Virus record (IMG/VR): IMGVR_UViG_3300045988_161152
Strand: one strand, 5' to 3'
Length of the DNA stretch: 64,000 bases
Source: a virus
Taxonomy: Duplodnaviria; Heunggongvirae; Uroviricota; Caudoviricetes
The notes beneath the pieces were generated by a model that saw nothing but the letters and a program-made list of their open reading frames with translations, searched no databases and was not told the DNA's origin. This document shows, piece after piece, positions 2,632-4,046 of this stretch. The translations under genes and the position numbers were made by a program. How positions within the stretch are numbered: position 1 is the first letter of the stretch; each line of letters starts with the position of its first letter.

Positions 2632-3096
2632 CAGGGTTTTCGTCATGGTTAGCGACTTTGCGGCGGTTTAGAAACTGACCATTAAAGTAAATGCAAACGA
2701 TGATCTGATGATGGTAGCGGCCTAAGAAGCCAGATGCCACGGGGTATGAGTCGTCCCCCGTCAAAAAATCGACCGCAGAGTGTCCCCGTCTGTGTATTAG
2801 GGAACGGGGAGGCACAACAGGTAAGGGCGCTGGTGTGATTAACCAGATGAACGAGAAGGGGCCATCTGTTGGTCAGCGTCCTTTCCTGTTGCGTTTTCTT
2901 TTCAGCGTAACAGCGGTGCTTAACAGCACTTTGGGTACAGTTCCACGAATTTACGGGTATATCCCGTCATGCTGAAAGCGCTAATCACGCTGGAAGCCAG
3001 GGTTGTGCATCCCCTGTTACCGAATTGCAGCCAGGGCGCGGTGCGCCGAAAAGCATACGGAGGTGGAAGCCCTCGCCGGAGACGTACCCGGCAAGT

Positions 3097-3172
3097 GATG
3101 GTGTAGCTCAGCGGTTAGAGCGGTTGACTGTTAATCAACGGGTCGATGGTTCAAATCCATCCACCATCGCCA
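3097..3172 (+). tRNA. tRNA-Asn (anticodon GUU)
   Basis: 76-nt cloverleaf: acceptor GATGGTG/CACCATC, D-arm GCTC..GAGC, anticodon loop CTGTTAA, T-loop TTCAAAT, discriminator G, encoded CCA. Confidence 0.9.
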
Positions 3173-3174
3173 AT

Positions 3175-3250
3175 GCCGGTTTAGCTCAGTTGGTAGAGCG
3201 CCTGCCTTGTAAGCAGGATGTCAGCGGTTCGAGTCCGTTAATCGGCACCA
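3175..3250 (+). tRNA. tRNA-Thr (anticodon UGU)
   Basis: 76-nt cloverleaf: acceptor GCCGGTT/AATCGGC, anticodon stem CCTGC/GCAGG with loop CTTGTAA, T-loop TTCGAGT, encoded CCA; starts 2 nt after tRNA-Asn. Confidence 0.9.
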
Positions 3251-3252
3251 GC

Positions 3253-4046
3253 ACAACAGGTAAGGGTATTTTGCGACGTCGGAGATCGCCGAGCTTGGCA
3301 GAGGGTTCGAATCCCTACGAAGTACCCTTACCGTTGTGATGAATGCGCAGGCTGATGCGCGAAAGACATTGCAGCTATTGCGGAAAAGAGCTGTTCGGCG
3401 GGGCAATTAAACGCCCGTGAGAGTCTGAAATAACCGCAAGCCGGAGATCAGCACCGGTCATCACAACACAACAGGTAAGGGCATTCTCCCTTATGGGGCT
3501 TGGCTTAAATGCATCGAGTGCTCTTACCGTTGTGATGAAGTGCAGCTCTTTGAAGCAACCAGAAGATAAGCATCTGGCTTCACAACATAAACCGCAGGAA
3601 CGACCAATAAACGGTAGTCCGTATGGAGAACACCCCGTTGAGGAAGAGGCCTGGCCGGAACCGTAACCGGCACTACAACGTTGAGAACACTGGCGTAACG
3701 GGGTCATATCCCAATCTACGAATAAATGTTGCGTTGCAGCGTGACAACCAGTGTTCTCAACATTGTGGTGAATGCACAGGCTGATGTGCCGCAACTACAG
3801 TAGTGCGCGCTTTGCGGGGCTTGCTACAACCCTGTGTCGGAGTTCAGCACCGACCATCACAGTTTGATTCTCTGGCATGAGCATAACGCTGAAATAAGTC
3901 CAGTCTGGTGCGGCCCGATCACCCGCCGTTAGCTCCACGAAACGGAGCACGTAACAGGTAAGAGCATTCTCCTGTAACGGGTTCATATCCCAATCTACAG
4001 GTCCACCAGGAATGCTCTTTCCGTTGCGGTGAATGCGGCTAAGCGC
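3253..4046 (+). repeat. Array of four structured long-stem hairpin units (candidate stable or processed small RNAs) between tRNA-Thr and tciA
   Basis: Units at 3253-3338, 3468-3534, 3675-3768 and 3953-4027 share arms beginning ACAACAGGTAAG and ending CTTACCGTTGTGATGAA with compensatory or G-U-compatible changes; units 1, 3 and 4 are followed by a small co-varying hairpin; no credible ORF. Confidence 0.45.

What the first reader, a model, noticed from the sequence alone, without database searches (positions are those of the whole stretch)
2814..4046. Array of co-varying long-stem hairpin RNAs between tRNA-Thr and tciA
About 0.8 kb after tRNA-Thr has no credible ORF but four units of a long imperfect inverted repeat (3253-3338, 3468-3534, 3675-3768, 3953-4027), with a fifth arm-like copy of the 5' motif at 2814-2830. 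Arms start ACAACAGGTAAGRG and close with CTTACCGTTGTGATGAA. Arm differences are compensatory or G-U compatible (GGTAAGGGCATTC pairs with GAGTGCTCTTACC). Units 1, 3 and 4 are each followed by a short hairpin whose stem co-varies (GCGCA...TGCGC, GCACA...TGTGC, TGCG...CGCA). The unit 1 loop carries a tRNA T-arm-like GGGTTCGAATCCC. Covariation that preserves pairing points to selection on RNA structure, as expected for processed stable RNAs co-transcribed with the tRNAs. P1 already uses a tRNA-like processed regulatory RNA (c4) elsewhere.
Basis: seen in the sequence. Interest (0 to 1): 0.6.

Follow-up and report, generated by a model that had tools for sequence, protein, structure and literature searches.

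The report
Modular hairpin RNA array in P1-like phage
The stretch after tRNA-Thr in this P1-like phage holds five members of a large, unannotated family of long-stem hairpin RNAs found in many phages of enteric bacteria, each keeping a conserved stem while carrying a swappable tip that sometimes copies parts of tRNAs; their function is unknown.

Summary
The window holds five hairpins, not four: U0 2813-2893, U1 3252-3338, U2 3467-3534, U3 3671-3770 and U4 3950-4028. All are on the + strand, in the roughly 1.75-kb untranslated leader of the C1-controlled ban operon. Fold z-scores are -5.0 to -8.3.

They belong to a family with over 190 covariance-model hits in about 150 phage and prophage loci. 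About 19% of complete E. coli genomes carry a match, and none is annotated. Stem covariation holds in three alignments, one of them independent of the seed. G.U-type pairs outnumber A.C-type pairs 94 to 16, so the + strand RNA is what is under selection.

The annotated P1 ORFs plp and upl are not conserved. The tips are varied but fall into recurring conserved types: a T-arm or tRNA-elbow-like tip, and one that matches the initiator tRNA anticodon arm.

Hairpins alternate with helix-closed linker domains, one of which is Rfam STnc100-like. The array also includes tRNAs, a DicF-like sRNA and a tmRNA-like tag module encoding ANDDLMMVAA.

Best reading, at 0.45: structural and processing punctuation of a polycistronic non-coding precursor that also releases small stable RNAs. 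Processing and function are untested.

The parts
2398..2443 (+). P1ban/P2ban promoters and C1 operator Op72 (context: start of the transcription unit)
   Evidence: Transferred from the P1 annotation (L001 1499-1544) through the 99.3% alignment of window 2400-3350 to L001 1501-2448. Not tested here.
2538..2632 (+). DicF-like sRNA region ending in the only strong + strand intrinsic terminator (2604-2632)
   Evidence: P1 misc_feature 'dicF-like region'. Terminator scan. Read by eye, it resembles the sequence upstream of dicF in prophage Qin.
2634..2812 (+). tmRNA-like tag-template module. Tag ORF 2693-2722 (ANDDLMMVAA), stop 2723-2725.
   Evidence: Eight different 10-codon SsrA-like tags in 21 loci (20 fetched loci plus the window), with synonymous and conservative changes, and a repeat of one of them in a Rouxiella genome. 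Conserved and covarying helices. Sub-threshold matches to Rfam tmRNA_permuted. No tRNA-like domain found.
2813..2893 (+). Hairpin unit U0. Here the usually bulged A (2819) can pair with U2887.
   Evidence: I2. z -5.04. Covariance model 36.2 bits, E 1.9e-6.
3097..3250 (+). tRNA-Asn (3097-3172) and tRNA-Thr (3175-3250)
   Evidence: ARAGORN. Rfam tRNA 74.5 and 72.9 bits.
3252..3338 (+). Hairpin unit U1, starting 2 nt after the CCA of tRNA-Thr. The tip has a T-arm (3303-3315) and a GG-loop hairpin.
   Evidence: z -5.22. 86.1 bits. The same tip sits on covarying stems in phage BUCT554 and locus L038.
3333..3467 (+). Linker domain 1, closed by helix 3333-3342/3458-3467. Contains hairpin a (3345-3360) and hairpin b (3441-3457).
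   Evidence: I23, 10/10 complementary. 96-98.6% identical to lambdoid phages, with a compensatory A-U versus G-C change in the closing helix.
3467..3534 (+). Hairpin unit U2. Its tip is CCCTTATGGGGCTTGGCTTAAATGCA. U2 is absent from P1 itself.
   Evidence: z -5.79. 63.2 bits. P1 lacks window 3351-3516. Tip 0/28 differences versus arms 7/40 against Klebsiella phage 5 LV-2017.
3529..3586 (+). Short linker 2 (GTTGTGATGAAG ... CTTCACAAC) with two small hairpins
   Evidence: Direct-repeat family D2. Same module in phage Sasha. Structure read by eye.
3671..3770 (+). Hairpin unit U3, with a different stem sequence (GTTGAGAACACTGG). The tip carries GGGGTCATATCCC (3700-3712). Followed by hairpin a at 3774-3789.
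   Evidence: I1, 23 nt and 91% complementary. z -8.32. 68.9 bits. Tip motif.
3950..4028 (+). Hairpin unit U4. The tip carries GGGTTCATATCCC (3979-3991).
   Evidence: I12. z -6.50. 70.5 bits. Tip motif.
4023..4146 (+). STnc100-like closed domain, the leader of tciA. Closing helix GTTGCGGTG (4023-4031) / CACCGCAAC (4138-4146).
   Evidence: Rfam RF02076 39.2 bits at 4025-4144, below the gathering score of 47. The model's outer helix is this closing helix. A related element lies between dicF and dicB in Qin.
4178..4603 (+). tciA (TerB-like), the first protein-coding gene after the non-coding array
   Evidence: ORF list. Pfam TerB 28.4 bits. P1 annotation.

Best explanation
The interval is part of a roughly 1.75-kb non-coding stretch of the ban operon built from two alternating kinds of self-closing RNA modules.

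Anatomy:
- Long-stem hairpin 'units' have the form 5' CAYAAC-(bulged A)-about 13 bp ... tip ... 13 bp-GTTGYG 3'.
- 'Linker' domains are closed by a 9-10-bp helix (GUUGUGRUGA / UCAYCACAAC).
- tRNAs, a DicF-like sRNA and a tmRNA-like tag module are slotted between them.

Proposed mechanism:
- The units fold as each is transcribed. This keeps neighbouring RNA domains from misfolding and leaves little unstructured RNA in a long untranslated transcript.
- Host RNases then cut at or beside them. The roughly 20-bp stems suit an RNase III-type cut. The single-stranded GA|AU between a unit and the next small hairpin suits RNase E. RNase P and 3' trimming act where a unit abuts a tRNA.
- Processing would give the tRNAs and linker RNAs defined, protected ends.
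- It would also release the units as small stable hairpin RNAs, whose conserved tips (tRNA-elbow-like, initiator-anticodon-arm-like) presumably bind host factors.

Shown: the structures, their covariation, their strand, their modular spread across phages, and tip conservation.

Inferred: transcription through the array, every cleavage step, the stability of the products, and any binding partner.
For: Structure and selection:
- z-scores are -5.0 to -8.3, and the + strand is always the more stable.
- Alignment A1: 92.8% of cells paired (shuffled mean 84.5; partners slid by 1-3 columns 32-61), with 14 pairs changed on both sides against 8.0 +/- 1.4, 0 of 500 shuffles.
- Alignment A2 (88 distinct sequences): 93.1% paired, with 211 double-change cells against 62.
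- Alignment A4, bacterial genomes of 13 named genera plus one family-level MAG, none in the seed: 93.3% paired, with 10 pairs changed on both sides against 3.4 +/- 1.2.
- G.U-type pairs 94 against A.C-type 16.

Transcription context:
- The array lies between the annotated C1-controlled promoters and tciA-ban on the same strand.
- No consensus promoter was found in 2300-5300.
- Units were on the same strand as nearby tRNAs in every locus examined.

Processing logic:
- Units start 1-2 nt after a tRNA CCA (window 3251/3252; Ro157c2YLVW, L019 and D6), or end 2 nt before a tRNA (phage Sf16). Maturing those tRNAs must therefore free a unit end.

Linker closure:
- The R/Y position in the closing helix is G/C 47, A/T 3, G/T 4 and A/C 0.
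- The same helix is the outer helix of Rfam STnc100.
- In the window, the variant C4027 is matched by a G in both possible partners (3951 and 4142).

Tips under selection:
- The U2 tip shows 0/28 differences while the arms show 7/40.
- GGGNNCATANCCC occurs 56 times in 1.2 Mb of loci, always in a unit tip on the sense strand, on four different stems.

Specific recognition:
- The bulged A, a U.U mismatch (17 of 20 in the independent set) and a U.G wobble are conserved, which suggests a specific partner.
Against: - No expression, end-mapping or RNase data exist for this region in anything I could read. Lobocka 2004 is not held.
- A strong intrinsic terminator (2604-2632) lies between the promoters and the array, so how much transcription reaches it is unknown.
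- Nothing tests RNase III or RNase E cleavage.
- If units were mere punctuation, the tips should drift, yet several are more conserved than the stems. This points to a function of their own that the explanation leaves open.
- The family was largely collected with a 3'-flank pattern, so the invariance of the flank is partly an ascertainment effect.
Confidence: 0.45

Rival explanations
1. The hairpins are mainly display scaffolds for trans-acting tRNA-part mimics. The tips copy the initiator tRNA anticodon arm or the T-arm/elbow, and act as decoys or sponges for host factors that recognise those parts. Candidates include tRNA-targeting toxin or defence nucleases such as VapC-type enzymes that cut initiator tRNA, tRNA-modifying enzymes, and the ribosomal P site.
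For: - The tip of the mEp460-class units shares a 14-nt identity (CGGGCTCATAACCC) with the anticodon stem-loop of E. coli tRNA-fMet. The tRNA sequence was verified at 100% in all 5426 genomes.
- The same core recurs in Pseudocitrobacter and Phytobacter prophages.
- Window U3 and U4 keep GGG-NUCAUAU-CCC.
- T-loop hairpins appear in about 11 of 63 distinct tips.
- Tips are conserved across different stems.
- The array sits among phage tRNA genes.
Against: - Most of the 63 distinct tips show no tRNA-like feature.
- U3 and U4 have only 3 G-C pairs and UCAUAU loops rather than the exact initiator loop.
- Rfam tRNA does not match any unit even at E <= 10.
- No target is identified.
- That VapC cleaves initiator tRNA is recalled from the literature, not tested here.
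Confidence: 0.2
2. The units protect the long untranslated transcript from premature termination. They could do this passively, by leaving Rho no unstructured loading site. Or they could act through a boxA-like sequence in the 3' arm (UGCUCUUUCC / UGCUCUUACC followed by GU-rich GUUGUGG) that recruits Nus factors, as in rrn operons, lambda nut sites and CRISPR arrays.
For: - About 1.75 kb is untranslated before tciA.
- The commonest 3' arm contains UGCUCUUU or GCUCUUAC. From memory, these match rrn boxA and lambda nutL boxA over 8 nt.
- A U.U mismatch is kept rather than repaired, as if both strands had sequence constraints.
Against: - The boxA-like strand is locked in a stem of about 20 bp, whereas known boxA elements act single-stranded.
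- Many units have quite different arms, including U1, U3 and the STnc100 mini-unit.
- The units lie downstream of the terminator, not upstream.
- In lambdoid late operons Q already provides antitermination.
- The boxA consensus was recalled, not tested.
Confidence: 0.1
3. The repeats act at the DNA level. They could be recombination or cassette-exchange sites, a miniature inverted-repeat mobile element, or single-stranded DNA hairpins such as priming signals. On this view the RNA structure is incidental.
For: - Close relatives differ by whole modules, with breakpoints inside the repeated arms. P1 lacks 3351-3516. Ro157c2YLVW lacks U1. L093 carries a hybrid U3/U4 unit.
- Modules are shared at 96-98.6% identity between unrelated phages.
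- The architecture superficially resembles integron attC sites (AAC...GTT ends, extrahelical base).
Against: - G.U-type pairs exceed A.C-type 94 to 16, so one particular strand is selected. That strand is always the one carrying tRNAs and the tag reading frame.
- The arm ends do not fit the attC core RYYYAAC/GTTRRRY (consensus recalled).
- No recombinase is shared among the P1-like, lambdoid, P22-like, FelixO1-like and Vi1-like phages that carry the units.
- Module loss by recombination between repeats is expected for any repeat.
Confidence: 0.07
4. The interval encodes the small proteins Plp and Upl on the minus strand, as annotated in P1.
For: ORFs of 139 aa (110 aa from the first ATG) and 63 aa exist and are annotated in P1, RCS47 and JL22.
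Against: - No significant Pfam match.
- The sequence is Cys/Ser-rich and of low complexity.
- The plp ORF diverges completely after 12 residues in Ro157c2YLVW, and upl is absent in Ro157c2YLVW and D6.
- The P1-versus-window indel is 166 nt, not a multiple of three.
- P1 plp overlaps trnT.
- Substitutions follow base-pairing, not codons.
Confidence: 0.02

Closest known systems
Rfam STnc100 (RF02076) and the related PasD sRNAs of lambdoid prophages
   Same: The STnc100 model begins inside a 42-nt 'mini-unit' hairpin of this family. Its outer helix is the GUGGUG/CACCAC linker-closing helix. The window carries an STnc100-like domain right after U4. Both are prophage-borne and Enterobacterales-restricted, and STnc100's function is unknown (PMC12370729; bioRxiv 10.64898/2026.05.13.724894).
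   Different: STnc100 covers the linker domain plus a terminator hairpin, not the long-stem unit. It contains only the loop and 3' arm of the mini-unit. No unit in the window is matched by it, and the window's match is below the gathering score (39.2 versus 47).
Stable RNAs co-transcribed with phage tRNAs (T4 species 1 and 2, rnaC/rnaD; from memory)
   Same: Small structured RNAs of unknown function embedded in a phage tRNA cluster and released by the tRNA-processing machinery.
   Different: The present family is modular, repeated and shared across many phage families, and has a conserved stem with variable tips.
RNase III processing stalks (rrn operons, T7 early mRNA sites, lambda N leader; from memory)
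   Same: A long imperfect helix formed by sequences flanking a 'cargo'. It has conserved irregularities (bulge, mismatch) and lies between functional RNAs in a long transcript.
   Different: Cleavage is not demonstrated. The cargo here is 13-130 nt and itself conserved.
Y RNA-like YrlA (RF02553) and other tRNA-like domains on a long stem
   Same: In U1-type units, a long stem formed by the 5' and 3' ends carries a T-arm and a GG-loop hairpin.
   Different: No YrlA match lies on any unit. The only weak hit (25.6 bits) lies on the true tRNAs. Domain order differs: here the long stem occupies the acceptor position. E. coli K-12 lacks the Ro partner (from memory).
tmRNA (for the neighbouring module at 2634-2812)
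   Same: Pseudoknot-like region, resume-codon context UAAAU|GCA, a 10-codon tag ending in hydrophobic residues plus Ala, and a stop codon in the loop of a helix.
   Different: No acceptor stem, T-arm or CCA in cis. ARAGORN is negative, and Rfam tmRNA families score below threshold.

Membership tests
Rfam STnc100 (RF02076) | Score at or above the curated gathering threshold (47 bits) over the full model | tested here: not met
   Window 4025-4144 scores 39.2 bits on model positions 31-147 only. None of the five units is covered.
Rfam STnc100 (RF02076) | Outer helix UGGUG...CACCA enclosing the domain | tested here: met
   Window 4023-4031 pairs with 4138-4146, with a compensatory U-A to C-G change relative to the consensus. 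This applies to the linker after U4, not to the hairpin units.
tRNA (RF00005 / ARAGORN) | Cloverleaf with acceptor, D, anticodon and T arms | tested here: not met
   ARAGORN and Rfam call only the Asn, Thr and CAT tRNAs. No unit gives a tRNA hit at E <= 10. U1 has a T-arm and a GG-loop hairpin but no anticodon arm and no CCA.
Y RNA-like YrlA (RF02553) | Match to the covariance model: Ro-binding stem plus permuted tRNA-like domain | tested here: not met
   The only hit, 25.6 bits (gathering score 69), is at 3117-3234 on the real tRNAs.
P1 c4 antisense RNA | Match to the Rfam C4 model | tested here: not met
   No C4 hit in 2300-5300 at E <= 10.
tmRNA (module 2634-2812) | Tag reading frame with resume codon, and stop in a helix loop downstream of a pseudoknot | tested here: met
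   Eight conserved 10-codon tags. Helices found. The resume region aligns to the Rfam permuted-tmRNA model.
tmRNA (module 2634-2812) | tRNA-like domain: acceptor stem with G3:U70, T-arm, 3' CCA | tested here: not met
   ARAGORN finds no tmRNA in the window or in loci L003-L010. Rfam tmRNA families score 12-35 bits, below threshold. Where units carry a T-arm, the acceptor-like 3:70 position is U.G, not G.U (read).
RNase III processing stalk | Cleavage by RNase III in vivo or in vitro | not testable with these tools
   Only the helix length (about 19-23 bp with a bulge and a mismatch) is compatible.
boxA / nut-type antiterminator | Accessible boxA bound by NusB-NusE upstream of the protected region | tested here: inconclusive
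   A boxA-like octamer is present in most 3' arms, but it is base-paired and not universal. Binding is not testable.
Integron attC / MITE-like DNA repeats | Strand-symmetric or DNA-level constraint, core sites RYYYAAC/GTTRRRY, associated recombinase | tested here: not met
   G.U-type pairs 94 against A.C-type 16. Arm ends CACAAC/GTTGTG do not fit the core (sequence). No shared recombinase is evident among the annotated features near the units in the carrier phages examined.

The most novel reading that the evidence does not exclude
The hairpins are a phage-borne display system for swappable RNA tips that imitate parts of the translation apparatus: the initiator tRNA anticodon arm and the tRNA elbow. 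Together with the adjacent tmRNA-like tag template, they would form an RNA toolkit. P1-like, lambdoid, FelixO1-like and Vi1-like phages would use it to decoy tRNA-targeting defence nucleases, or to redirect ribosome rescue and tagging in the infected cell.
Probability: 0.15. Interest if true: 0.9.

Novelty: new variant of a known kind. Interest (0 to 1): 0.7.

Why it matters
Phage P1 is one of the most used phages in genetics, yet this part of its ban operon has been annotated as two doubtful ORFs. The evidence shows a dense array of structured RNAs instead. They belong to a family present in about one in five complete E. coli genomes, in phages of at least five unrelated types, and in 18 species-representative genomes, nearly all Enterobacterales. 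None of these copies is annotated.

A conserved stem carrying exchangeable, individually conserved tips is an unusual design for bacterial non-coding RNA. Its association with phage tRNAs, a tmRNA-like tag template and DicF/STnc100-type sRNAs suggests that phages carry 'RNA operons' acting on host translation or RNA metabolism. The finding gives concrete, testable objects: defined hairpins, defined junction helices and a defined tag peptide.

Tried and rejected
- **Rfam scans.** I scanned the region and four related loci at permissive thresholds. Only tRNAs, sub-threshold STnc100 and sub-threshold tmRNA families matched. Hits to microRNA and plastid families are noise.
- **tRNA cargo.** I tested whether units carry whole tRNA genes as cargo. 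ARAGORN on 50 loci found none inside a unit.
- **A complete tmRNA.** I looked for a one-piece or permuted tmRNA around the tag module. No acceptor/T-arm/CCA partner was found. An apparent pairing between the module's 5' end and the 3' strand of U1 does not recur in other phages, so I dropped it.
- **Kissing loops.** The loops of hairpin a (GGCUGAU) and hairpin b (AUCAGC) are complementary. The few loop variants are not compensated, so this stays unsupported.
- **Other motif readings.** Hammerhead, C/D-box, kink-turn and Chi readings of GUGAUGA/CUGA/GTTGTGG were rejected, because the motifs are not conserved (GUGGUGA is the common form).
- **CsrA sites.** GGA in hairpin b occurs once per linker, too few to argue for a sponge.
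- **Literature.** Searches on P1 tciA/ban, STnc100, Pas sRNAs, phage tmRNA and tmRNA-like elements found no description of the hairpins or of the tag module. Lobocka 2004 is not held. The P1vir/hfq RNA-seq preprint does not report on this interval.
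Full report
**Where the window comes from and what surrounds the finding**

The window is a P1-like phage. Region 2400-4200 is 99.6% identical to Escherichia phages JL22 and RCS47, and about 99.3% identical to P1 itself, which lacks part of it.

I transferred the P1 annotation through that alignment. 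It places the finding inside the ban operon, all on the + strand:
- dmt ends at 2423.
- The C1-controlled promoters and operator Op72 lie at about 2398-2443.
- A 'dicF-like region' with a strong intrinsic terminator follows (2604-2632).
- tRNA-Asn (3097-3172) and tRNA-Thr (3175-3250) come next.
- Then comes the interval in question, followed by tciA (4178-4603; Pfam TerB), tciB, tciC, a CAT tRNA (4878-4953) and ban.
- No consensus sigma-70 promoter is found between 2300 and 5300.

Yes. The inverted-repeat search recovers the arms of all units (I1, I2, I8, I12). It also shows that the '5' motif copy' at 2814-2830 has a matching 3' arm at 2874-2891. There are therefore five complete hairpins: U0 2813-2893, U1 3252-3338, U2 3467-3534, U3 3671-3770 and U4 3950-4028.

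Folded as RNA, the five have z-scores of -5.04, -5.22, -5.79, -8.32 and -6.50 against dinucleotide shuffles. In every case the + strand is 5-10 kcal/mol more stable than its complement. A covariance model of the family (R1) finds these five sites on the + strand as the only significant matches in 64 kb, apart from weaker mirror images on the minus strand. The five were part of the seed.

**It is not a P1 peculiarity**

- A sensitive BLAST of 3240-4060 hits 117 phage records from Klebsiella, Salmonella, Escherichia, Cronobacter and Enterobacter hosts, usually under 'no annotated feature'.
- Carriers include lambdoid phages (mEp460, Stx2 phages, Klebsiella phage 5 LV-2017), a P22-like phage (BUCT554), a siphovirus (Sasha), an Ackermannviridae phage (K751) and a FelixO1-like phage (Sf16). 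In Sf16 the unit sits inside the tRNA array.
- A scan of IMG/VR with the 3'-flank motif returned at least 120 contigs.
- R1 gives 123 + 69 hits in the phage loci and 20 more in bacterial genomes.
- A consensus unit matches 1041 of 5426 complete E. coli genomes: 964 places on chromosomes and 265 on plasmids. No annotated feature lies under any of the listed matches.
- An exact 29-mer of the 3' junction occurs in 18 stretches from 17 species-representative genomes. These include Klebsiella, Pantoea, Rahnella, Erwinia, Kluyvera, Kosakonia, Raoultella, Rouxiella, Pseudocitrobacter, Phytobacter and Pluralibacter. The other two are a Martelella alba scaffold and a Geobacteraceae MAG.

**Anatomy of a unit**

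The consensus is 5' gCACAAC-A-GGUAAGAGCAUUG ... tip (13-130 nt) ... CAGUGCUCUUUCC-GUUGUGGUGAAU. Three irregularities are conserved:
- a bulged A after the basal 6 bp;
- a U.U mismatch at the third pair above the bulge (31 of 52 sequences, and 17 of 20 in the independent set);
- a U.G wobble near the top.

Other stems have quite different sequences that still pair. Examples are GUUGAGAACACUGG/CCAGUGUUCUCAAC in U3, GAUGAGGGCAUUUA/UAAGUGCUCUCAGC in mEp460, GGGAAGAACACUGG/CCAGUGUUCUUCCC, and AUUCUAAAGAG/CUCUUUAAAAU in Sf16.

**Covariation**

| Alignment | Distinct sequences | Cells paired | Changes on both sides | Control |
|---|---|---|---|---|
| A1 | 52 | 92.8% | 14 of 23 pairs | shuffled 84.5% paired and 8.0 +/- 1.4 pairs, 0/500; slid partners 32-61% paired |
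| A2, model-based | 88 | 93.1% | 211 cells | 62 cells |
| A4, not in the seed | 20 | 93.3% | 10 pairs | 3.4 +/- 1.2 pairs, 0/500 |

A4 comes from bacterial genomes of many genera. It was collected with a pattern that fixes only the last two stem bases.

Among 64 distinct stems, G.U-type pairs number 94 and A.C-type pairs 16. So one strand is selected: the strand that carries the tRNAs. In every locus with nearby tRNAs, units and tRNAs are on the same strand. This is RNA-level selection. It argues against a symmetric DNA-level element.

**No protein gene**

- The minus-strand ORFs annotated in P1 as plp and upl have no significant Pfam match. There is none for plp, and only a sub-threshold hit for upl (E 0.078, 13.3 bits against a cut-off of 27).
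- plp diverges after 12 residues in Ro157c2YLVW, and upl is missing in Ro157c2YLVW and D6.
- The P1/window difference is a 166-nt indel.
- P1 plp overlaps trnT.

**Units are cassettes**

- P1 and D6 lack window 3351-3516, which is the linker plus U2. The junction lies inside the 29-nt repeat of the 3' arms.
- Ro157c2YLVW lacks U1 and has U2 directly after tRNA-Thr.
- D6 has a true tRNA-Ser in a junction slot.
- L093 has a hybrid U3/U4 unit.

**A second kind of module: closed linkers**

The 3' flank of a unit (GUUGUGRUGA) is complementary to a sequence 70-250 nt downstream (UCAYCACAAC). That downstream sequence is usually the 5' flank of the next unit. In the window, 3333-3342 pairs with 3458-3467 at 10/10 (I23).

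Across 54 distinct linkers the variable position is G with C 47 times, A with T 3 times, G with T 4 times and A with C never. The window and mEp460 linkers are about 98% identical yet differ by exactly this compensatory pair. In mEp460 no unit follows, so the helix closes the linker itself.

The Rfam STnc100 alignment shows that the same helix is that family's outer helix. It also shows that the model starts inside a 42-nt 'mini-unit'. In the window the STnc100-like domain runs from 4023 to 4146 (39.2 bits, below the gathering score of 47). Its helix GUUGCGGUG/CACCGCAAC carries a compensatory change. The same C4027 is matched by G3951 in U4's own base. Both alternative pairings therefore look maintained, although this rests on one lineage. 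A related leader lies between dicF and dicB in prophage Qin.

**Tips are diverse but not neutral**

Sixty-three distinct tips were seen. Recurrent types:
- **T-arm type.** A canonical T-arm (GGUUCGAAUCC) plus a GG-loop hairpin occurs in U1, BUCT554 and L038 on covarying stems. T-loop hairpins appear in about 11 tips.
- **U2 type.** CCCUUAUGGGGCUUGGCUUAAAUGCA occurs in U2, Ro157c2YLVW, Klebsiella phage 5, L119 and Sf16. It shows 0-2 differences in 28 nt while the arms differ at 2-7 of 40 positions, and the Sf16 stem, read by eye, is largely different.
- **Initiator-arm type.** ACGGGNNCAUAWCCCAAUCYA occurs in U3 and U4. All 56 matches to GGGNNCATANCCC in 1.2 Mb of loci lie in unit tips on the sense strand, on four different stems. 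The mEp460 class has CGGGCUCAUAACCC, a 14-nt identity with the anticodon stem-loop of initiator tRNA. I verified that tRNA sequence in all E. coli genomes. The same core occurs in Pseudocitrobacter and Phytobacter prophages.

**The tmRNA-like module, noticed while tracing U0**

Just upstream, at 2634-2812, lies a conserved module. Its centre reads UAAAU|GCA AAC GAU GAU CUG AUG AUG GUA GCG GCC UAA, encoding ANDDLMMVAA, at 2693-2725.

Twenty-one loci (20 fetched loci plus the window) carry eight variants: ANDNTFLAVA, ANDNVFLAVA, ANDDVVLMAA, ANEEMYLAAA, ANDEQFLAVA, ANEEMYLAVA, ANEEVYLAVA and the P1 form. All have 10 codons plus a stop, and they differ by synonymous and conservative changes. A Rouxiella genome carries ANDDVVLMAA again. 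The module has a helix pair before the resume codon, a helix with the stop codon in its loop, and a covarying hairpin. It aligns to the coding piece of Rfam's permuted-tmRNA model at 34.7 bits on Sf16, below threshold.

No tRNA-like domain or CCA was found, and ARAGORN is negative. The module is always flanked by units, a promoter or a terminator. It is therefore one more 'linker-type' domain in the same grammar. I found no description of it in the searchable literature.

**How it most likely works**

Shown:
- the structures, their strand, their covariation and their modularity;
- the conserved irregularities and the conserved tips;
- the physical abutment to tRNA ends. U1 starts 2 nt after the CCA of tRNA-Thr. 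The same holds in Ro157c2YLVW, L019 and D6. In Sf16 a unit ends 2 nt before tRNA-Arg.

Inferred:
- The array is transcribed from the ban promoters through the terminator.
- The units fold as they are made and insulate neighbouring domains.
- Host RNases separate the modules: RNase III in the stem, RNase E in the single-stranded GA|AU, and RNase P and exonucleases at the tRNAs. After a cut, the 3' basal strand of a unit can re-pair with the downstream partner. That would give the linker RNA paired termini.
- The excised units persist as small hairpin RNAs whose tips bind host factors.

I put this at 0.45. Rivals:
- Tips as tRNA-part decoys as the main function: 0.2.
- Protection from termination, including a boxA-like reading of UGCUCUUUCC: 0.1.
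- A DNA-level role: 0.07.
- Coding for Plp/Upl: 0.02.

**Comparison with what is known**

The nearest curated family is STnc100, with the related PasD sRNAs. It overlaps the system only at the linker and half a mini-unit, and its function is unknown (PMC12370729; bioRxiv 10.64898/2026.05.13.724894). T4 species 1/2 RNAs, RNase III stalks and YrlA are functional analogies, not memberships (see the membership tests). The family is absent from Rfam 15 as such, and no annotated feature lies under the listed RefSeq E. coli matches.

**Verdict**

The finding is real and statistically solid, and the RNA-structure reading is right. It is a new family of modular phage RNAs in a classical phage. Its function is unknown, and it has an intriguing link to tRNA and tmRNA mimicry.

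Noticed in passing
window 2634-2812 (tag ORF 2693-2722, stop 2723-2725): A tmRNA-like tag-template module encoding ANDDLMMVAA. Eight tag variants occur in P1-like, lambdoid, Ackermannviridae (K751) and FelixO1-like (Sf16) phages (one of them again in a Rouxiella genome), but no tRNA-like domain or CCA was found. It is not annotated in P1, and I found it in no paper.
   Followed up: partly
window 2538-2632; L131 (E. coli K-12 Qin) 1440-1640: By eye, the P1 'dicF-like region' resembles the sequence upstream of dicF in Qin. It ends in its own sRNA-like hairpin and terminator, which is the only strong + strand terminator between the ban promoters and the tRNAs. Read-through or a hidden promoter is therefore needed to express the array.
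   Followed up: partly
window 4023-4146; L131 1650-1790; L005 2490-2640: An STnc100-like helix-closed domain forms the leader of tciA. A related element precedes dicB in Qin and tciA in D6, with compensatory changes in the closing helix and in the CCGGG/CCCGG versus CCTGG/CCAGG hairpin.
   Followed up: partly
window 3333-3467; L003 (mEp460) 2501-2637: The 135-nt linker between U1 and U2 is 96-98.6% identical to a segment downstream of the repressor gene in lambdoid phages (mEp460, Stx2 phages, IME207). This points to recent exchange of a single RNA module between unrelated phages.
   Followed up: partly
window 3349-3356 and 3445-3453, and the same hairpins in about 40 loci: The loop of the small hairpin after a unit (AGGCUGAU) is complementary to the loop of the small hairpin before the next unit (AGAUCAGCA), which suggests a kissing interaction. 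Both loops are conserved, and the few variants are not compensated.
   Followed up: partly
L007 (Klebsiella phage K751) 973-4108: More than 3 kb without an annotated gene is filled with these modules, including a full-length STnc100 match (48.8 bits, 3497-3711). At about 1640-1705 there is a tRNA-like sequence (GGCGAAG...T-arm...CTTCGCCA) that ARAGORN and Rfam do not call.
   Followed up: no
unit 3' arms, e.g. window 3516-3534 and 4010-4028; L038/L050/L089 upstream of the tag module: Two resemblances rest on sequences recalled from memory. The common 3' arm UGCUCUUUCC/UGCUCUUACC resembles boxA of rrn operons and lambda nutL. Where it precedes the tag module (CAGUGCUCUUUCCAGUUUUCGUC), it resembles the 5' end of E. 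coli tmRNA (GGGGCUGAUUCUGGAUUCGAC) at about 14 of 21 positions.
   Followed up: no
L001 (P1) 2320-2697 versus 2274-2349: The annotated P1 gene plp overlaps trnT on the opposite strand by 30 nt. plp and upl look like mis-annotations of the hairpin array.
   Followed up: yes
L005 (phage D6) 2307-2393 and 3631-3714: D6 carries a genuine tRNA-Ser(UGA) in a junction slot of the array, and one more unit downstream of the CAT tRNA, upstream of ban. The window has no unit there.
   Followed up: no
window 2826-2846 and 2784-2810; L007 1975-1998: A further recurrent loop motif, GUGUGAUUAA, appears in the last hairpin of the tag module in other phages (GCCCGGUGUGAUUAAUAAUGGGC) and in the tip of U0 (CUGGUGUGAUUAACCAG).
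   Followed up: no
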